Notes under the pieces: model-generated
The model's database searches: none
What the model was told of the DNA's origin: nothing
The model's input: only the letters and a program-made list of their open reading frames with translations
Source: a virus
Taxonomy: Duplodnaviria > Heunggongvirae > Uroviricota > Caudoviricetes
Virus record (IMG/VR): IMGVR_UViG_2540341091_000003
Coordinates: 1 to 43,247 of that record
Strand: one strand, 5' to 3'
DNA: 43,247 bases
Shown here: piece by piece, positions 1,369 to 13,612 of the stretch
Position numbering within the stretch: position 1 is the stretch's first letter
How the letters are laid out: each line of letters begins with the position of its first letter
Position numbers and translations under genes: made by a program

Positions 1369-1444
1369 GCCGATATAGCTCAGTTGGTAGAGCAGCGCAT
1401 TCGTAATGCGAAGGTCGTAGGTTCGACTCCTATTATCGGCACCA
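1369..1444 (+). tRNA. thrW: tRNA-Thr (anticodon CGU)
   Basis: 76-nt sequence GCCGATATAGCTCAGTTGGTAGAGCAGCGCATTCGTAATGCGAAGGTCGTAGGTTCGACTCCTATTATCGGCACCA with canonical D and T arms, a CGT anticodon in the anticodon loop and a 3' CCA; sits downstream of proA as thrW does in E. coli. Confidence 0.93.
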
Positions 1445-3154: not shown

Positions 3155-3516
3155 TATGCTCCAGCCTCCGGTGCTTTTGGCATTACTGCCCAGTGAGTGA
3201 TATTGACGTTTTCAAGGTCCCCGACCTGAAATGTCCACTGCCATTCTCCGGTTTCTTTTTGTCCCCAGGTGTACCAGAGAGAACGCCAGCCAATTAGCCA
3301 GCCTTCTCCTTTAGCATCGAATAACAAAACACTTTCATTTGCTGGTGGCAGTTCAGTTGACACTGGTATTACTTTGTTTTCCTGTGCTGCACATTTAGCT
3401 TCAAGCGCATCGAATTTACGCACCAGGTATTCAGCATCTGTTTCATTTACTTTCAGATCTCGCGGTACACATCTCCCACGAAGAAACCCTTCCATTTCGA
3501 AAACATTCATGCGCAT
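3154..3516 (-). CDS. Phage early protein, hypothetical (120 aa; YfdS-like)
   Basis: ORF translationally coupled to flanking genes; Trp-rich C-terminal half reminiscent of small lambdoid early proteins. Confidence 0.6.
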   Translation of the reverse strand: MRMNVFEMEGFLRGRCVPRDLKVNETDAEYLVRKFDALEAKCAAQENKVIPVSTELPPANESVLLFDAKGEGWLIGWRSLWYTWGQKETGEWQWTFQVGDLENVNITHWAVMPKAPEAGA

Positions 3517-4070
3517 TTGCGTAACTCCGATAACTCGTTAAAGCGTTCCATAAACATCCCGTAGGCATGGCCCGGTGCCAGTGGAATCACGTTGAACATC
3601 TCTGTTGCCGGGATACCTTCCAGTACAGGCCAGAAAGAGCCATCATCAAGCCCGAGATCGCGCTGTTCGGTTGCCAGCATGATGAGATCGGCATATTTCA
3701 CGGGCGTACTCATAACTGGGGGTAACCCGTATTTCTCACGGATTACGGCGTCTATTTTTTCTTCCATTTGTTTATAGTCAGGAAGAAGGCGTTTCAGTGG
3801 TGCGGGAATGTCCTGGCAATACGCTTCTGTTGCATCATGCATTAACGCTTCAAAAGCAAATTCCTGCGGCACCAGCTGGCTGCAAAGAACCGCATGTTGG
3901 GCGACGCTGTAGAAGTGCGAAAGATGACCGGCAAAGCGACAGATATTTGAAAGGGAAACCGCGATATCGTTAATATCGATGTCGTCTTTATTTATCCTGT
4001 CATAATAAAAATGCTTCCCGGAAAAAGTTTTAATAAATGACATTTTGTTCTCCACGTATATGCGCTGCAC
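3507..4070 (-). CDS. HD-domain phosphohydrolase (YfdR-like)
   Basis: Motifs ...GHLSHFYSVAQHAVLCS... and ...LMHDATEAYCQDIP... match the H...HD...D metal-binding pattern of HD hydrolases. Confidence 0.7.
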   Translation of the reverse strand: MQRIYVENKMSFIKTFSGKHFYYDRINKDDIDINDIAVSLSNICRFAGHLSHFYSVAQHAVLCSQLVPQEFAFEALMHDATEAYCQDIPAPLKRLLPDYKQMEEKIDAVIREKYGLPPVMSTPVKYADLIMLATEQRDLGLDDGSFWPVLEGIPATEMFNVIPLAPGHAYGMFMERFNELSELRKCA

Positions 4071-4170: not shown

Positions 4171-4995
4171 TCAGGCGGTGAAAGTACCAATAAAGGTTTC
4201 TACTTTGCTGTCCTTGAATTTCTCAACAAGCAGATCACGAAATTCGTTAGCCATTTCTTCCTGCACCGCCTCCAGCTGAATAATGCGCAGAACCAGTACA
4301 GGACGATCGCCAGTGATAATACTGAGGCGTAATTTAAACGGACGTTCTTTCAGACCTTCAAACGGAACGCATTTAAATTCAAATGCCACTGGCATAATGT
4401 CTTTGGTCTTCGCTTCGACAGACTCCATCAGGGAGCGTTTGCCGCTGAAGTCATTATCTTCAAAATCAGCGGTCTGGTTTGCTTCAATCGTGATTTTACG
4501 GACAGCCGCAGCCGCTTTTGTTGCCTGAATGGCGTCACCATTAGCATCAAAGCCCACAAGGTAGTCGGCCCAGTCTTCAATCCATTCTGCCAGTGACTTC
4601 TGGGAGTTACGCTCGCCGTTAACAGACAACAGAGCAGAGAACGGTGCTGTCTTTTTCAGTTTGAGAGTGGCGGTGTTATCTGCGTGACCTGGTTCATCAA
4701 TAGTACCCAGGTTAAGCACACTGACGGCACGCATATTATCGGCATCGATAAAGCAGCGGGTGCCTTCATCTGCAAGAACTTTAGAATAACGGGTAAAGTC
4801 ATCGATGCTGGCAGTGGAAAGCGCACCACGGAAACGGAAGCGATTTAAATTAAATTTTTCCAGATCATGAATGCGGAAATTCTCAGGCAATGCCACAGCA
4901 TCGGCACCAATCTTACTGATAATTTCATTAACACCCTGAGCAGAAATAAGGGCATGGATTTGATTAATTGCGGTTGCGTCTAAGTTCTGAGACAT
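4171..4995 (-). CDS. DUF2303-family phage protein (YfdQ-like, 274 aa)
   Basis: Size and position match YfdQ of the CPS-53 early region; the family call is from memory and unverified. Confidence 0.65.
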
Positions 4996-5059: not shown

Positions 5060-5422
5060 TTAACGACCTGCTGCGCGGAGTTTTCCGTCAGGTTCACCGG
5101 CAAGAGTCAGTAATTGTCCCTGGTCTTCCTGCAGAATAGTCAGGCGACCACCGCGATTGACATACATCGGCGTTTCGGTGGTGTCTTCTTCGGAAATTTT
5201 CCCGCGGTTAGTCGGGCGAACATATGAGAGTTTGTGTTTGATTTTCACTCGGTTCTCATCAAACGGTTCGATTTCCAGGTTGAGCGAGACCTTACCTTTG
5301 GTTTTCGTGTTCATCACACCGGAAGCGACTTCACTGAGAACTGCGCCGATTTTGGTTTCAAATACGCCGCCGTCCAGCTCCCCGATAAATGCCTGCACAT
5401 CAGTACTGCGTTCGCTAGCCAT
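5060..5422 (-). CDS. Small phage early protein (YfdP-like, 120 aa; start at internal ATG 5420-5422 preceded by GAGGAG)
   Basis: The 226-aa ORF in the track has a Pro/Arg-rich, non-protein-like N-terminal extension; the Met at 5422 has a strong RBS and gives a 120-aa product MASERSTDVQAFIGELDGG.... Confidence 0.6.
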   Translation of the reverse strand: MASERSTDVQAFIGELDGGVFETKIGAVLSEVASGVMNTKTKGKVSLNLEIEPFDENRVKIKHKLSYVRPTNRGKISEEDTTETPMYVNRGGRLTILQEDQGQLLTLAGEPDGKLRAAGR

Positions 5423-5890
5423 TTTGCTGCTCCTCATCATATCGACCCTGCAAGGTCGGTTAGTTTCTCCACAAAACAGAGAAGAACACCTGCGGTGACT
5501 GCCGCCCGGATGGATTGGGTTATGAGCCCGTCGTCCGGTGATGCTCTTCTCTGTTTTGTAAAAAGGACGGTACCAGCCGGAAGCAAGGGTACAAGCTGGT
5601 ACCGCCAAGACTACACACAGCATAAAGTTGTGGTGCCGGGTGCCTCCCGGTGCCTGGCGAAGGTTGCACACCAGGCGGGTGGGTATCCACAGAAGGTCGA
5701 CTGTCAGCCTCAACCTTAACCCGCGTGCGCTGAGCCGCATTCACCACAACGCTAAGGATTCTCTCTGGTTGAAAATACTTAGCTGTTATGTGCCTGCTTT
5801 TAGCCACATCAGGCGAGGTGGACCTAGTTATTCCCCAACAACAAGGATTCGGTTAATCTGGTTATCCCCAACAACGCAAAAGGAAAAGAA

Positions 5891-6325
5891 ATGTCCGGTA
5901 ATATCTATACGCTGTACAAATCCCACTGTGAAAATGTTGGAAAGTATCGGGGCATTGAAATCAGTGGGGTAGTGTCATCAGTCGAAATAAGCAAAGTTGA
6001 ATCAAGGGCAACATTACTTACTCTTTTGGACCTTGTCTTACATGAGCACCGGAAGAAATTCGGCACTCCCTATAATCAGTTGAATGGGAAAAAGGCTCTG
6101 GTTCACCTTATTCTGATGAAGCATCACTGGATGCCAAAACAGATTAATGAGATGAAATTTGATGAACTTCTTCTTTCAATTCAGGATGAACTCACACTTG
6201 ATAAAATAAGCGTAACCGCCCAGAAATTTTTAGATTATCGAGACTGGAGATCACAAATTCATCACTTTGATGATTTTGACGAAAATGAATGGGATCCTAA
6301 TTTGTCTGCACAATATCTAAAGTAA
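5891..6325 (+). CDS. Hypothetical protein, 144 aa, AT-rich orphan gene antisense to the early-left operon
   Basis: ORF with AAGGA RBS 6-8 nt upstream; markedly AT-rich compared with neighbours; no motif recognised. Confidence 0.55.
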   Translation: MSGNIYTLYKSHCENVGKYRGIEISGVVSSVEISKVESRATLLTLLDLVLHEHRKKFGTPYNQLNGKKALVHLILMKHHWMPKQINEMKFDELLLSIQDELTLDKISVTAQKFLDYRDWRSQIHHFDDFDENEWDPNLSAQYLK

Positions 6326-6518
6326 CATCCTGTGATAAAACCGTGATTTCCTGATCCAGTTTTTTTAAGGAGTCTATTGTTTCCTGTCGATAAGACAGCA
6401 CTTCACGAAGCTGGTTTATAGCTGCCAGCTTCTTTGTCATCCACTCATAAATTTCCTCATCTGTGTAGCCAGGCGCGACGATTTTGGGTTCTGTTTTGTG
6501 CATTTCACACCTCCTCAA
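6297..6518 (-). CDS. Hypothetical small protein (73 aa), first gene downstream of the putative pL
   Basis: ORF with GAGGAGG RBS (6531-6537 on the minus strand); occupies the position of N in lambda but has no arginine-rich motif. Confidence 0.45.
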   Translation of the reverse strand: MRRCEMHKTEPKIVAPGYTDEEIYEWMTKKLAAINQLREVLSYRQETIDSLKKLDQEITVLSQDVTLDIVQTN

Positions 6519-6659
6519 GTTATCAGTTACTTGTTGATGGGGACCAGATTGTTAAAGAGCTAAGCGTCCTGTAGGGCGCTTTTTTGTTGCTAACGAATCA
6601 CCCTAGACTTTATATGCCCCAGGCGGCTACTTCGTGGGCGTCCTGCCTGTTCGTTATCT

Positions 6660-6740
6660 TTGATATAAAATCTAACTTAACTTAGTTATTATGGCAAGAG
6701 AAAACACCAAACTTTTCTTAGTTCGGTGCCTTAGTTAGAG
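6660..6740. promoter_or_regulatory. Putative left operator/promoter (OL/pL) region
   Basis: Repeated CTTAG-containing half-sites (CTAACTTAACTTAG at 6672-6685; CTTAGTT at 6718-6724 and 6730-6736) matching the palindromes found between cI and cro. Confidence 0.45.
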
Positions 6741-6750
6741 AAGAGAGGTC

Positions 6751-7377
6751 TTAGAGTTCGTATTGAACTCCTTTGACTACACCAATGATAAGGCAATTAC
6801 CATTGATAGGGATGTTGGGATACCGAGGATTTAAAGGCACTAAAAACTTTTGAGGGCCATCGATGACTAATTTTTTTACTGTAGCTTCGTTTGTTCCATC
6901 AAGTCGAGCGATGACTATTTTTCCATGACGAGGTTCTGCATCTGGATCTACAATCACTGTTGCGCCTTCTGGTATTGTTGGGAGGCCATTAGGGTTAGTC
7001 ATGGAGTCACCTTTAACCTCTAATGCAAATGAGTTATCACCAATCTTTAATGATGTATCTACCCACTTGTCCACTTCACTAAACACTTCTGCTGCCCTGC
7101 ACTCAGTAAACTGCCCAGCCTGAACCCACGATATTACAGGAACTCTGCGCATGTTTGTGACGAGTTTGCCTTCAAACTCAGCACCATAAAGAATGTAATC
7201 TATTGACGTATTGAAGAACTTCGCTAATTTCGAAAGTGCCTCCCCACCAGGGGTATTGATGTCTTTCTCCCAGTACCCCACAGCAACGTCGCTTACTCCA
7301 CAAAATTTACCCAATTCTTTCTGGGACGTTCCGGTAACTCTTCTCAGAGCTTTTATACGCTGACCAACCGTTTCCAT
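6751..7377 (-). CDS. CI-like repressor (HTH + S24 LexA-type autopeptidase domain)
   Basis: N-terminal HTH (QKELGKFCGVSDVAVGYWEKDINTPG), C-terminal ...ALEVKGDSMTNPNG... Ser-protease motif and downstream Lys; divergent from cro. Confidence 0.9.
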   Translation of the reverse strand: METVGQRIKALRRVTGTSQKELGKFCGVSDVAVGYWEKDINTPGGEALSKLAKFFNTSIDYILYGAEFEGKLVTNMRRVPVISWVQAGQFTECRAAEVFSEVDKWVDTSLKIGDNSFALEVKGDSMTNPNGLPTIPEGATVIVDPDAEPRHGKIVIARLDGTNEATVKKLVIDGPQKFLVPLNPRYPNIPINGNCLIIGVVKGVQYEL

Positions 7378-7394: not shown

Positions 7395-7470
7395 AATTGC
7401 TAAGTAATCTTAGTTTTTATTGACCAAAGATAGATTTGTAATTAGCATCTAATAAAACTTAGTTTGGAGG
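7395..7470. promoter_or_regulatory. Right operator/promoter region (OR, pRM/pR) between cI and cro
   Basis: Palindromes CTAAGTAATCTTAG (7400-7413), ATTAGCATCTAAT (7441-7453) and AAACTTAGTTT (7455-7465) in the 97-bp divergent intergenic region; TTGACC at 7420-7425. Confidence 0.6.
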
Positions 7471-13231: not shown

Positions 13232-13612
13232 TTGTGGAGAAAGTTGATGCGTGATATTCAAATGGTTCTGGATCGTTGGGGAGCATGGGCGGCGAGTGAT
13301 AGTTCAGGAGTAGACTATTCTCCTATAGCTGCTGGGTTTAAAGGGCTTCTTCCCTACACAAGCAAAACACGTCAGGCTTGTTCAGATAGTGATGCATTAA
13401 TTATTGAAGGTTGTCTTGCTCGTCTAAAGCAAAAAAAGCCAGATGAGCACTCGCTGCTTGTGGCACATTATTTATACAGAATATCCAAGCGTAAGATTGC
13501 AAAGGTGCGTGGAAAGGATGAAAAATTGGTACGCATAGAAATACAACTAGCCGAAGGATTTATTGATGGTTGCCTTTCAATGTTGGATGTTAACCTTGAA
13601 ATGGACGCTTAG
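13232..13612 (+). CDS. Late-gene antiterminator Q-like protein
   Basis: 126-aa protein at the end of the early-right operon, immediately upstream of the lysis/late region; family call by position and general resemblance only. Confidence 0.5.
   Translation: MWRKLMRDIQMVLDRWGAWAASDSSGVDYSPIAAGFKGLLPYTSKTRQACSDSDALIIEGCLARLKQKKPDEHSLLVAHYLYRISKRKIAKVRGKDEKLVRIEIQLAEGFIDGCLSMLDVNLEMDA

What the first reader, a model, noticed from the sequence alone, without database searches (positions are those of the whole stretch)
5423..5890. GC-rich, inverted-repeat-dense noncoding interval in the early-left region
Seen in sequence: ~470 bp with no convincing ORF but several strong stems: ACAAAACAGAGAAGA (5471-5485) pairing with TCTTCTCTGTTTTGT (5535-5549) around a nested CCGG-rich hairpin; a perfect 9-bp stem GGTACCAGC...GCTGGTACC (5569-5603); CCGGG/CCCGG stems near 5634-5660; then two direct repeats TTAT(T)CCCCAACAAC (5828-5843 and 5863-5877) just upstream of the 5891 ORF. 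GC content is clearly above the flanking genes. Inference: a structured RNA (processing or antitermination element, or sRNA) or a cluster of protein-binding sites controlling the adjacent orphan ORF; I could not match it to any RNA family I know.
Basis: seen in the sequence. Interest (0 to 1): 0.5.

Follow-up and report, generated by a model that had tools for sequence, protein, structure and literature searches.

The report
Prophage early-operon leader small RNA
The GC-rich "noncoding" stretch is real structured RNA, read from the opposite strand to the neighbouring orphan gene: it is a divergent copy of a known prophage small-RNA family (STnc100/PasD) followed by a terminator, sitting in the leader of the phage's repressor-controlled early-left operon, and E. 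coli K-12 annotates its own copy as a protein gene (ymfH).

Summary
The stems, repeats and GC rise are all present, apart from a 10-nt coordinate slip in one stem arm. They resolve into one minus-strand leader RNA.

In 5'->3' order on the minus strand it contains:
- a five-branch core (5750->5627);
- a conserved single-stranded linker (5626->5605);
- an intrinsic terminator (5604->5560);
- an 89-nt long hairpin (5559->5471);
- a small hairpin (5460->5441);
- the yfdP ribosome-binding site.

The 5780->5557 stretch matches Rfam STnc100 over the full model. It scores 43.4 bits with E = 9e-8, just under the 47-bit curated threshold. It carries the family's invariant GGUGAAU and ACCGGGAGGCACCCGGCACC motifs. 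Across 46 relatives the core helices are 97.7% paired, against 84% in shuffles, and 8 of 19 pairs show compensatory changes.

No reading frame is conserved. The "ymfH" frame runs from 7 to 226 aa among relatives.

The window is an SfV/e14-type prophage. I found no dedicated promoter, so the RNA is probably read from the leftward early promoter (PL, 6697-6669). The e14 copy is SOS-induced in K-12.

The CCCCAACAAC direct repeats belong to a separate inserted gene module, not to the RNA.

Most likely function: an Hfq-type sRNA released by termination, which also attenuates the early-left genes. A cis-acting antitermination role is not excluded.

Verdict: a new, divergent member of a known family; moderate interest.

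The parts
5751..5783 (-). 5' hairpin of the RNA (arms 5783-5771 and 5763-5751). It corresponds to the first ~30 positions of the STnc100 model.
   Evidence: Inverted repeat I3; Rfam alignment starts at 5780; this hairpin forms in the minus-strand MFE and centroid folds.
5627..5750 (-). STnc100-type core, a five-branch junction:
- P1 closing helix: GUUGUGGUG (5750-5742) with CACCACAAC (5635-5627);
- junction AAU: 5741-5739;
- hairpin 1: GCGGC-UCAGC-GC-A-CGC (5738-5723);
- P3: GGG (5722-5720) with CCC (about 5679-5677), enclosing variable hairpins 5717-5693 and 5690-5679;
- hairpin 4: 5676-5652;
- invariant hairpin P5: CCGGG-AGGCA-CCCGG (5650-5636).
   Evidence: Rfam RF02076, 43.4 bits, E = 9.4e-8. 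Family alignment A3 and consensus fold. Covariation counts: 97.7% of cells paired against 83.7% in shuffles, 8 of 19 pairs with double changes. Only 3 variable sites in 39 close relatives.
5605..5626 (-). Single-stranded linker UUUAUGCUGUGUGUAGUCUUGG. It is a candidate base-pairing seed or Hfq/RNase E site.
   Evidence: GCUGUGUGUAGUCUU is kept in the window, e14, ST64B, phiES15 and phiNP although the terminators that follow are three unrelated sequences, and phiNP has a different core.
5560..5604 (-). Intrinsic terminator: 10-bp stem CGGUACCAGC/GCUGGUACCG (5604-5595 and 5577-5568), then UCC and U5 (5564-5560).
   Evidence: Inverted repeat I4; Rfam model positions 165-206; MFE fold. A hairpin plus U-run is kept with different sequences in ST64B and phiES15. 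The U-run exists on the minus strand only.
5471..5559 (-). Long hairpin: a duplex of about 20 bp (ACAAAACAGAGAAGAGCAUC / GGUGUUCUUCUCUGUUUUGU) with a branched tip. Inferred to be a second attenuator and/or an RNase III-type processing site.
   Evidence: Inverted repeat I1; MFE and centroid folds. Conserved in e14, ST64B, cdtI, phiNP and many IMG/VR prophages, with the compensatory change GAGAAG/CUUCUC -> GAAAAG/CUUUUC in the ST64B type.
5420..5460 (-). Small hairpin ACCGACCUUGCAGGGUCGAU (5460-5441), then the Shine-Dalgarno GAGGAG (5435-5430) and the AUG of yfdP (5422-5420).
   Evidence: The hairpin is replaced by a different hairpin sequence at the same place in ST64B and phiNP.
5060..5422 (-). 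yfdP, the first gene downstream of the leader. It is followed leftwards by yfdQ (4171-4995) and an HD-domain yfdR-like gene (3507-4070).
   Evidence: Its variable sites fall 2/5/27 by codon position, a true coding signature.
5828..5875 (+). Two direct repeats, TTATTCCCCAACAAC (5828-5842) and TTATCCCCAACAAC (5862-5875). They are a separate motif and not part of the RNA. A third copy lies on the minus strand at 6531-6542, upstream of orf68.
   Evidence: 3 matches against 0.05 expected. Homology with e14/SfV stops at about 5821 and with PhiR29-type phages at 5875.
5891..6325 (+). Orphan ORF (144 aa, ECs1072 family). It is oppositely oriented and inserted between the leftward early promoter (PL) and the RNA, and it converges on orf68 (6297-6503, minus strand).
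   Evidence: NCBIfam NF033230, E = 1.7e-46; phrog_5286; annotation in strain 1428.
6669..6737 (-). Candidate leftward early promoter PL (TTGCCA-17-TAGATT, 6697-6669) embedded in operator-like CTAAG..CTTAG repeats (6670-6737). It is the likely source of transcription across the RNA.
   Evidence: Promoter scan. The repeat family is shared with the cI/cro intergenic region at 7400-7465. The start of the leader (about 6655-6615) is homologous to the start of the ST64B and phiNP leaders.

Best explanation
The interval is the promoter-distal part of the untranslated leader of the prophage's repressor-controlled early-left (PL) operon, and it is read on the minus strand.

It encodes a ~225-nt RNA of the STnc100/PasD family of prophage Hfq-associated small RNAs. 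This copy belongs to a divergent subtype in which hairpin 1 is GCGGC...GC-A-CGC instead of CCCCC...GG-N-GGG. The RNA comprises a five-branch core closed by GUUGUGGUG/CACCACAAC, a conserved single-stranded G/U-rich linker, and an intrinsic terminator with a short U5 tail. A long duplex hairpin of about 20 bp and a small hairpin follow, just before the yfdP ribosome-binding site.

Proposed mechanism:
1. When the S24-type repressor is cleaved (SOS response), RNA polymerase starting at PL (6697-6669) runs leftwards through orf68 and antisense to the orphan ORF, and transcribes the core.
2. A fraction of transcripts ends at the terminator. This releases a stable, structured sRNA whose linker plus U-tail is the Hfq/base-pairing module.
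3. The remaining transcripts read through the weak U5 terminator and the long hairpin to express yfdP-yfdQ-yfdR and the genes beyond. The element therefore also attenuates the early-left genes.
4. The long perfect duplex probably separates the sRNA from the mRNA by RNase III-type processing.

Shown here: family homology, strand, structure with covariation, the terminator, the absence of a conserved ORF, and the position in the operon.
Inferred: Hfq binding, trans-acting targets, the read-through fraction, and RNase III cleavage.
For: Family and strand:
- Rfam STnc100 matches the full model on the minus strand, 43.4 bits, E = 9.4e-8.
- The family-invariant motifs GGUGAAU and ACCGGGAGGCACCCGGCACC are present exactly.
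- P1, hairpin 1, P3 and P5 are 97.7% paired across 46 sequences, against 83.7% in shuffles and 36-53% when partners are slid. The covariation score is 0.342 against 0.105.
- The minus strand folds better: z = -6.0 against -3.7.
- The U-run follows the hairpin only on the minus strand.
- Three unrelated terminator hairpins follow the same conserved linker in relatives.

Behaviour of typical family members:
- They are self-contained sRNA genes with their own sigma-70 promoter and terminator.
- They pass Rfam's threshold at 68-104 bits, whereas the window's subtype scores 32-48 bits.
- Published work shows members are Hfq-bound and Hfq-stabilised sRNAs (PasD: PMC8550237; EcOnc27/STnc100: PMC7873438, PMC12711010; bioRxiv 10.64898/2026.05.13.724894).

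Not coding:
- The ymfH frame ranges from 7 to 226 aa among relatives.
- Variable sites fall 8/8/15 by codon position in the leader against 2/5/27 in yfdP.
- There are no Pfam, NCBIfam or PHROG hits.
- PGAP calls it a frameshifted pseudogene in the strain that matches 5440-5890 at 100% identity.

Operon position:
- The element lies between the cI-type repressor and the first early-left gene in the window, SfV, e14, ST64B and phiES15. In phiES15 kil and gam follow it.
- PL with operator repeats sits at 6669-6737.
- The K-12 copy ('ymfH', 90% identical) is induced by DNA damage together with xisE and intE (PMC11228462) and sits in the same iModulon (PMC12132413).
Against: - The Rfam score is below the curated gathering threshold (43.4 against 47).
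- No acceptable sigma-70 promoter lies directly upstream of the RNA. It may therefore never exist as a discrete primary transcript, and in a quiet lysogen it may not be made at all.
- The U-tail is only 5 U, which from general knowledge is short for a strong Hfq-dependent sRNA.
- No target was identified. A test against the ftsZ leader, prompted by a weak DicF resemblance, was not significant, and the window holds no complementary site.
- Some family members have no terminator and sit 25-45 nt upstream of a co-oriented ORF (P1 tciA), or 8 nt upstream of what reads as a tRNA gene (by eye, not scanned). That fits a cis role better than an sRNA gene.
- The extreme conservation of a multi-helix core is unusual for a purely base-pairing sRNA.
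Confidence: 0.6

Rival explanations
1. The core is a cis-acting leader element, comparable to the processive antiterminator RNAs HK022 put or Bacillus EAR, or to a riboswitch-like aptamer. It would modify the transcribing polymerase or sense a signal so that the early-left operon is read through the tandem terminators in a lambdoid phage with no recognisable N protein.
For: - The element always lies in the sense direction within long phage operons, upstream of an intrinsic terminator or directly upstream of a gene start.
- SfV, ST64B and the window show a further terminator-like hairpin or hairpins in the leftward leader beyond the one after the core (SfV: annotated terminators; ST64B: read by eye; window: the long hairpin). 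No N-like protein was found among the first PL genes (orf68, SfV orf33, e14 ymfJ are all PHROGs of unknown function) or in the PR-side ORFs scanned with Pfam.
- Invariant junction and loop nucleotides across Enterobacterales suggest recognition by a conserved host machine.
- In P1 the core sits inside the ban operon without a terminator.
Against: - There is no similarity to HK022 putL or putR, and only one copy exists in the window.
- Typical family members are stand-alone genes with their own promoter and terminator. They accumulate as short, terminated, Hfq-bound RNAs (PMC8550237, PMC7873438), so termination right after the core is efficient.
- In ST64B a terminator-like hairpin lies upstream of the core.
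- I found no conserved alternative pairing (antiterminator or Shine-Dalgarno sequestration) among members (by inspection).
- cdtI- and phiNP-type phages carry a different domain without P5 at the same position.
Confidence: 0.15
2. The core is an RNA processing or stability module. It would be a tRNA-like five-way junction used as a punctuation mark (RNase P/E/III) that gives downstream mRNAs or tRNAs a defined, protected 5' end, with no trans-acting role.
For: - The architecture has P1 stacked on a 5-bp P5 with no linker, a short 3-nt junction to a small first hairpin, and variable middle arms.
- Members lie between cistrons without a promoter or terminator (L189, L190, L222, P1). Others lie next to phage tRNA genes: L088 is 8 nt upstream of what reads as a tRNA gene (by eye, not scanned), L143 has tRNAs about 110 nt upstream, and the P1 copy lies between tRNA genes.
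- A long perfect duplex follows in the window.
Against: - ARAGORN finds no tRNA-like gene here.
- The P5 loop has 5 nt, not the 7 nt of a T-loop.
- No CCA or discriminator context is present.
- Published members behave as Hfq-dependent sRNAs with many RIL-seq partners (PMC8550237).
Confidence: 0.1
3. The interval is DNA-level regulatory sequence (protein-binding sites or a promoter region), or a plus-strand RNA, that controls the adjacent orphan ORF at 5891.
For: - The CCCCAACAAC repeats lie 14-60 nt upstream of that ORF, in sense orientation. A third copy lies upstream of the convergent orf68.
- The plus strand also folds better than shuffles, z = -3.7.
- Published 'dyads' of sense/antisense sRNAs exist at STnc100-type loci (PMC7873438).
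Against: - The conserved block 5440-5821 occurs in e14, SfV, ST64B and phiES15 without that ORF.
- There is no plus-strand promoter or terminator match inside 5423-5890 apart from a weak, T-poor hairpin.
- There are no AsxR or AgvB hits on the plus strand.
- The terminator works on the minus strand only.

This reading may still hold for the 5822-5890 sub-interval alone.
Confidence: 0.05
4. The interval is a real or decaying protein-coding gene (YmfH-like), as annotated in E. coli K-12 and as a frameshifted CDS elsewhere.
For: - K-12 annotates a 103-aa CDS, ymfH, on the 90%-identical e14 copy.
- Many close relatives keep an open frame of 226 aa that fuses with yfdP.
- Over-expressing the 'ymfH' clone gives a phenotype: it triggers a retron toxin (bioRxiv 10.1101/2020.06.22.160242).
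Against: - The putative AUG lies inside the family-invariant GGUGAAUG.
- The frame ends after 7-75 aa in ST64B, phiES15, P1-type and many E. coli variants.
- There is no excess of third-position changes: 8/8/15 against 2/5/27 in yfdP.
- K-12 has a 1-nt deletion in the P5 loop relative to the window.
- No protein family matches.
- The CCCC subtype lacks the AUG altogether.
Confidence: 0.03

Closest known systems
STnc100 (Rfam RF02076) / PasD1-PasD2 / EcOnc27 (sRNA103): prophage-encoded Hfq-associated sRNAs of Salmonella and pathogenic E. coli
   Same: - Same core architecture and invariant motifs: GGUGAAU, ACCGGGAGGCACCCGGCACC, and P1 closing a multi-hairpin junction.
- An intrinsic terminator follows the core.
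- Encoded by a lambdoid prophage.
- Full-length, significant Rfam alignment.
   Different: - Hairpin 1 carries three compensatory base-pair swaps (GCGGC/GC-A-CGC against CCCCC/GG-N-GGG), so this subtype scores below Rfam's gathering threshold.
- It sits in the leader of the early-left operon, not between the late promoter or stx genes and the lysis genes.
- No promoter of its own was found, whereas typical members have one.
- It is followed by an extra long hairpin.
DicF (Qin prophage; Rfam RF00039)
   Same: - An sRNA embedded in an immunity-repressor-controlled prophage operon, upstream of early or kil-type genes.
- In phiES15 the homologous RNA sits directly upstream of kil.
- The linker-plus-terminator segment UUGGCGGUACCAG resembles DicF's UUGGCGGUAUCAG. 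P1 carries both a 'dicF-like region' and an STnc100-type core in its ban operon.
   Different: - The DicF model scores only 19.4 bits, E = 0.26 (28.5 bits for e14), against a threshold of 48.
- DicF has no large 5' core.
- No significant complementarity to the ftsZ leader was found.
HK022 putL/putR and Bacillus EAR (cis-acting processive antiterminator RNAs)
   Same: A structured RNA downstream of an early phage promoter, upstream of terminators, in a phage without a recognisable N protein.
   Different: - No sequence or model similarity.
- About 125 nt and five branches, against about 70 nt and two stem-loops.
- A single copy.
- Family members terminate efficiently right after the element.
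Lambda PR' 6S RNA / StxS (short promoter-proximal transcripts ended by a terminator that is later overridden)
   Same: A leader RNA that ends at a terminator placed in front of an operon which must be read through during lytic growth. The terminated product can act as an sRNA (StxS: PMC7873438).
   Different: - Those RNAs start at the late promoter and are overridden by Q. Here the operon is the early-left one, and no overriding factor is known.
- The Klebsiella locus L198 shows the two are distinct: a short promoter/terminator unit comes first, and a separate STnc100 gene follows.

Membership tests
STnc100 (Rfam RF02076) | Covariance-model score at or above the curated gathering score (47 bits) | tested here: not met
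   43.4 bits, E = 9.4e-8, model positions 1-206 of 206, minus strand 5780-5557. The same subtype scores 31.9-47.8 bits elsewhere, while CCCC-type members score 68-104 bits.
STnc100 (Rfam RF02076) | Closing helix ending in GGUG...CACC with the junction AAU after the 5' strand | tested here: met
   GUUGUGGUG-AAU at 5750-5739 and CACCACAAC at 5635-5627. These columns are invariant in 46 sequences, and the outer pairs covary (UA/CG/AU, GC/AU/CG).
STnc100 (Rfam RF02076) | Invariant 3' hairpin ACCGGG-AGGCA-CCCGG stacked directly on the 3' strand of the closing helix | tested here: met
   Exact match at 5650-5636. The five stem pairs are identical in 46 of 46 sequences; a few relatives differ in the loop.
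STnc100 (Rfam RF02076) | First hairpin CCCCC-loop-GG-N-GGG after the AAU junction | tested here: inconclusive
   The sequence differs (GCGGC-UCAGC-GC-A-CGC, 5738-5723), but the helix is kept by double changes at three pairs: 22 sequences of each type, 100% of cells paired. The feature is structurally met and not met in sequence.
STnc100 (Rfam RF02076) | Intrinsic terminator at the 3' end | tested here: met
   10-bp stem at 5604-5568 plus U5 at 5564-5560, aligned to model positions 165-206.
STnc100 (Rfam RF02076) | Discrete, Hfq-bound small transcript | not testable with these tools
   Only indirect evidence exists: the e14 homologue ('ymfH') is SOS-induced in K-12 RNA-seq (PMC11228462). Hfq dependence is shown only for PasD and EcOnc27 (PMC8550237, PMC7873438).
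STnc100 (Rfam RF02076) | Own sigma-70 promoter immediately 5' of the RNA (seen in typical members) | tested here: not met
   No promoter-like site on the minus strand between 5780 and 6100. The nearest are at 6137-6110 and at PL, 6697-6669. Typical members L198 and L154 have one.
HK022 put RNA | Sequence or structure similarity to putL/putR (two stem-loops, about 70 nt) | tested here: not met
   No alignment beyond 9-14-nt chance words between window 5400-6720 and the HK022 immunity region. No shared Rfam hit.
HK022 put RNA | One copy downstream of each early promoter (PL and PR) | tested here: not met
   There is a single STnc100-type hit in the 43-kb window at E <= 1.
HK022 put RNA | Terminator read-through in cis that depends on the beta' zinc-binding domain | not testable with these tools
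   This needs in vitro or in vivo transcription assays.
DicF (Rfam RF00039) | Covariance-model score at or above the gathering score (48 bits) | tested here: not met
   19.4 bits, E = 0.26 in the window; 28.5 bits for the e14 copy.
Protein YmfH (K-12 annotation) | Conserved open reading frame with a coding substitution pattern | tested here: not met
   The frame ranges from 7 to 226 aa. Variable sites fall 8/8/15 by codon position against 2/5/27 in yfdP. No family hit.
Riboswitch-type leader | Conserved aptamer plus a conserved alternative pairing that overlaps the terminator or the Shine-Dalgarno sequence | tested here: inconclusive
   The conserved core is followed either by a terminator or by a gene start 25-45 nt away. 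By inspection I found no alternative pairing conserved across members. No ligand can be tested here.

The most novel reading that the evidence does not exclude
The STnc100-type core is not primarily a base-pairing sRNA. It is a cis-acting RNA that acts on the transcribing polymerase, or on a host factor, to let N-less lambdoid phages (the SfV, e14 and ST64B group) and P1-type elements read through the tandem terminators of their repressor-controlled operons. The terminated, Hfq-bound 'sRNA' seen in lysogens would then be the off-state by-product.
Probability: 0.15. Interest if true: 0.75.

Novelty: new member of a known kind. Interest (0 to 1): 0.4.

Why it matters
1. It explains a conspicuous structured interval as a known type of prophage RNA. 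Standard annotation misses it because this subtype scores just under Rfam's threshold.

2. It implies that the E. coli K-12 'gene' ymfH (e14), and the many 'frameshifted hypothetical protein' calls at this locus, are an RNA and not a protein. At least 80% of the 5440-5890 query is found in 1,812 of 5,426 complete E. coli genomes. Phenotypes assigned to ymfH clones, such as triggering a retron toxin, should be re-read as possible RNA effects.

3. It places an STnc100-family RNA in the leader of the SOS-induced early-left operon. Members of this family, whose function is still unknown, are usually found in the late region.

4. It raises a testable question: how do these N-less phages pass the terminators in that leader?

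Tried and rejected
- **tRNA/tmRNA scan of 5300-6000:** nothing found.
- **HK022 put comparison:** neither the Rfam scan of the HK022 immunity region nor short-word BLAST against the window leader showed similarity.
- **DicF-like targeting of ftsZ:** duplex energies of the window and e14 3' segments against the ftsZ leader were no better than shuffles (fraction 0.16-0.20). The method also over-extends duplexes, so it is uninformative.
- **Phage-internal targets of the linker:** a search of the window for sites complementary to the linker found only the locus itself.
- **Dedicated promoter for the RNA:** none passes the scan. By eye the best candidate is CATAAC with a poor -35.
- **Alternative pairings:** manual searches for antiterminator or anti-Shine-Dalgarno pairings found only a P1-specific hairpin over the tciA Shine-Dalgarno, which is not conserved in the other members.
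- **Genome-collection scan:** the degenerate 3' motif returned many chance hits in GC-rich Actinomycetota. I filtered them out by requiring GGUGAAU upstream.
- **Literature on e14:** the e14 genome analysis paper (PMC331406) is not held.
Full report
**1. Observation.**
- The long inverted repeat has arms at 5471-5495 and 5535-5559.
- The perfect stem lies at 5568-5577 and 5595-5604.
- The CCGGG/CCCGG hairpin lies at 5636-5650.
- The direct repeats lie at 5828-5842 and 5862-5875.
- GC content reaches 0.53-0.585, against 0.36-0.50 in the flanks.

The interval folds far better than dinucleotide shuffles, and better on the minus strand (z = -6.0) than on the plus strand (z = -3.7).

**2. Genomic setting.** The window is an SfV/SfIV/e14-type lambdoid prophage. 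It is 98-100% identical to phages Kati, SfIV and SfV over this region. Reading leftwards on the minus strand, the layout is:
- a LexA/S24-type repressor at 6751-7377;
- a promoter-like site, TTGCCA-17-TAGATT, at 6697-6669. It is embedded in operator-like CTAAG..CTTAG repeats that also occur between the repressor and cro. I take this to be the leftward early promoter, PL;
- orf68 at 6503-6297;
- the antisense of a plus-strand orphan gene at 5891-6325 (ECs1072 family);
- the interval in question;
- yfdP, yfdQ and an HD-domain gene.

In SfV, e14, ST64B, phiES15, cdtI and phiNP, a long GC-rich noncoding leader of 470-1000 nt occupies the same position between the repressor side and the first early-left gene.

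**3. What the interval is.** Read 5'->3' on the minus strand, the features form one leader RNA:
- a 5' hairpin (5783-5751);
- a five-branch core closed by GUUGUGGUG/CACCACAAC (5750-5627);
- a single-stranded linker, UUUAUGCUGUGUGUAGUCUUGG (5626-5605);
- an intrinsic terminator: a 10-bp stem at 5604-5568, then UCC and U5 (5564-5560);
- an 89-nt hairpin with a duplex of about 20 bp (5559-5471);
- a small hairpin (5460-5441);
- the GAGGAG Shine-Dalgarno sequence and the AUG of yfdP.

An E-value Rfam scan matches 5780-5557 (minus strand) to RF02076 STnc100 over the whole model. The score is 43.4 bits with E = 9.4e-8, against a gathering score of 47. That is why the default Rfam run reports only the tRNA.

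**4. Homologues and structure.** I collected relatives in two ways. A scan of IMG/VR used the 5' motif. A scan of one genome per species used the 3' motif, and I filtered its hits for an upstream GGUGAAU.

The 46-sequence alignment shows:
- invariant GGUGAAU and (C/U)ACCGGGAGGCACCCGGCACC;
- variable middle arms;
- two subtypes of hairpin 1: CCCCC...GG-N-GGG and GCGGC...GC-A-CGC (the window's subtype). They differ by compensatory swaps at three base pairs.

RNAalifold recovers P1, hairpin 1, P3 and P5. Counting gives 97.7% of cells paired, against 83.7% in column shuffles and 36-53% for slid partners. Eight of 19 pairs show changes on both sides, and the covariation score is 0.342 against 0.105.

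CCCC-type members pass Rfam's threshold at 68-104 bits. The window's subtype scores 32-48 bits, so annotation pipelines miss it systematically.

The same subtype occurs in P1 and P1-like phage-plasmids, in the upl-tciA spacer of the C1-controlled ban operon.

**5. Not a gene.** E. coli K-12 annotates the 90%-identical e14 copy as the CDS ymfH. In the strain that matches 5440-5890 at 100% identity, PGAP calls it a frameshifted hypothetical protein.
- The putative AUG lies inside the invariant GGUGAAUG.
- The frame runs from 7 to 226 aa among relatives.
- Variable sites fall 8/8/15 by codon position, against 2/5/27 in yfdP.
- No Pfam, NCBIfam or PHROG family matches.
- The core is more conserved than the neighbouring gene: 3 variable sites in 142 nt, against 34 in 360 nt.

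**6. The direct repeats are a separate thing.** Homology with e14 and SfV ends at about 5821, and with PhiR29-type phages at 5875. The motif CCCCAWCAAC has a third copy on the opposite strand, upstream of orf68 (6531-6542); that is three matches against 0.05 expected. The repeats therefore belong to the inserted orf68/ORF144 module. Their function is unknown.

**7. How it most likely works.**

*What published work shows.* Family members (PasD1/2, EcOnc27 = sRNA103, STnc100) are Hfq-bound and Hfq-stabilised sRNAs of lambdoid prophages. Their targets are still unclear (PMC8550237, PMC7873438, PMC12711010, bioRxiv 10.64898/2026.05.13.724894).

*What I found in typical members.* In Klebsiella and Atlantibacter loci, typical members have their own sigma-70 promoter a few nucleotides upstream of P1 and their own terminator.

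*What differs in the window.* The window copy has no such promoter, so it is most simply transcribed from PL when the repressor is cleaved. Consistent with this, the K-12 homologue is induced by DNA damage together with xisE and intE (PMC11228462) and lies in the same iModulon (PMC12132413).

*Evidence for a functional linker.* The linker GCUGUGUGUAGUCUU is conserved in front of three unrelated terminator hairpins, and even behind a different core in phiNP. That pattern is expected for a seed or an Hfq/RNase E site.

*Proposed mechanism.* Termination at 5604-5560 releases a structured sRNA. The weak U5 tract allows read-through into yfdP and the genes beyond. The terminator together with the long duplex therefore attenuates the early-left genes and probably serves as an RNase III-type processing site. 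Hfq binding, targets and processing are inferences.

**8. Rivals.**
- **Cis-acting antitermination or riboswitch-like role.** This reading is attractive for three reasons. These phages lack a recognisable N protein (Q is present at 13232-13612). A further terminator-like hairpin or hairpins lie in the leftward leader beyond the one after the core. And some members lack a terminator and sit 25-45 nt upstream of a gene start, or 8 nt upstream of what reads as a tRNA gene (by eye, not scanned). Against it: there is no similarity to HK022 put, only one copy exists, typical members are stand-alone terminated genes, and I found no conserved alternative pairing.
- **tRNA-like processing module.** This remains possible but is unsupported by ARAGORN.
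- **Control of the orphan ORF, or a plus-strand RNA.** The modular distribution of the conserved block argues against both.
- **Protein coding.** The frame analysis argues against it.

**9. Verdict.** It is a divergent member of the STnc100/PasD family in an unusual operon position. A useful by-product is that K-12 ymfH should be re-annotated as an RNA. Interest is moderate.

Noticed in passing
window 5833-5844 (+), 5866-5877 (+), 6531-6542 (-): The motif CCCCAWCAAC occurs three times (0.05 expected). Each copy lies in sense orientation within about 15-60 nt upstream of the start of one of the two convergent genes, ORF144 and orf68. It may be a shared translational or sRNA-target site, or a protein-binding site of this inserted module.
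   Followed up: partly
L001 3495-3806 (E. coli K-12 e14, 'ymfH'): The K-12 CDS ymfH overlies a 90%-identical copy of this RNA, and its AUG is part of the invariant GGUGAAUG. Over-expression of the ymfH clone was reported to trigger the retron-Sen2 toxin RcaT (bioRxiv 10.1101/2020.06.22.160242). That effect may be due to the RNA.
   Followed up: partly
L004 2504-2623 (phage P1, 70.08-70.20 kb): P1 and P1-like phage-plasmids (SJ46, RCS47, JL22) carry the same GCG-subtype core in the ban operon, without a terminator, 37 nt upstream of tciA. A P1-specific hairpin, AACCUUAUU/AAUGAGGUU, covers the tciA Shine-Dalgarno sequence. The predicted upl promoters read antisense through the core.
   Followed up: partly
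L008 2360-2500 (phage cdtI) and L009 2320-2500 (phage phiNP): These phages share the terminator, the long hairpin and yfdP with the window, but they carry different structured domains in the same position. cdtI keeps GUUGUGGU-AAU-hairpin and ACCACAAC but lacks the P5 hairpin. There is a mosaic joint at window 5608.
   Followed up: partly
L230 (8-kb genome locus), minus strand: Two full STnc100-type cores and one partial copy (3' motif only) lie within about 4 kb on the same strand of one prophage region. L249 has a second GGUGAAUCCCCC start about 45 nt after the first core.
   Followed up: no
L088 about 4330-4240 (-), L143 5491-5638: Family members lie next to phage tRNA genes. In L088 the core appears to be 8 nt upstream of a tRNA gene (read by eye, not scanned with a tRNA tool). 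In L143 two tRNAs lie about 110 nt upstream of it.
   Followed up: no
L198 3869-4054: In a Klebsiella grimontii prophage, a separate short promoter-plus-terminator unit (resembling lambda 6S or StxS) lies between a 213-aa ORF that I judged Q-like by eye (not checked against Pfam) and the STnc100 gene. The two kinds of late-region small RNA are therefore distinct.
   Followed up: partly
window 1369-1441 (+): A tRNA (71.8 bits) lies near the left end of the window. This is consistent with the prophage being integrated next to a tRNA gene, as is known for SfV-type phages (from my own knowledge: thrW).
   Followed up: no
L006 21-97 (-), L008 27-103 (-): IsrK-family sRNA hits above the gathering score (64 and 60 bits) lie in the rightward early regions of ST64B and cdtI. 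No such hit occurs in the window.
   Followed up: no
window 6562-6581 (+) and 6407-6432 (+): Two plus-strand terminator-like hairpins face PL. The orphan ORF144 and PL are therefore set up for convergent transcription, a possible source of transcriptional interference between the inserted gene and the lytic early-left operon.
   Followed up: no
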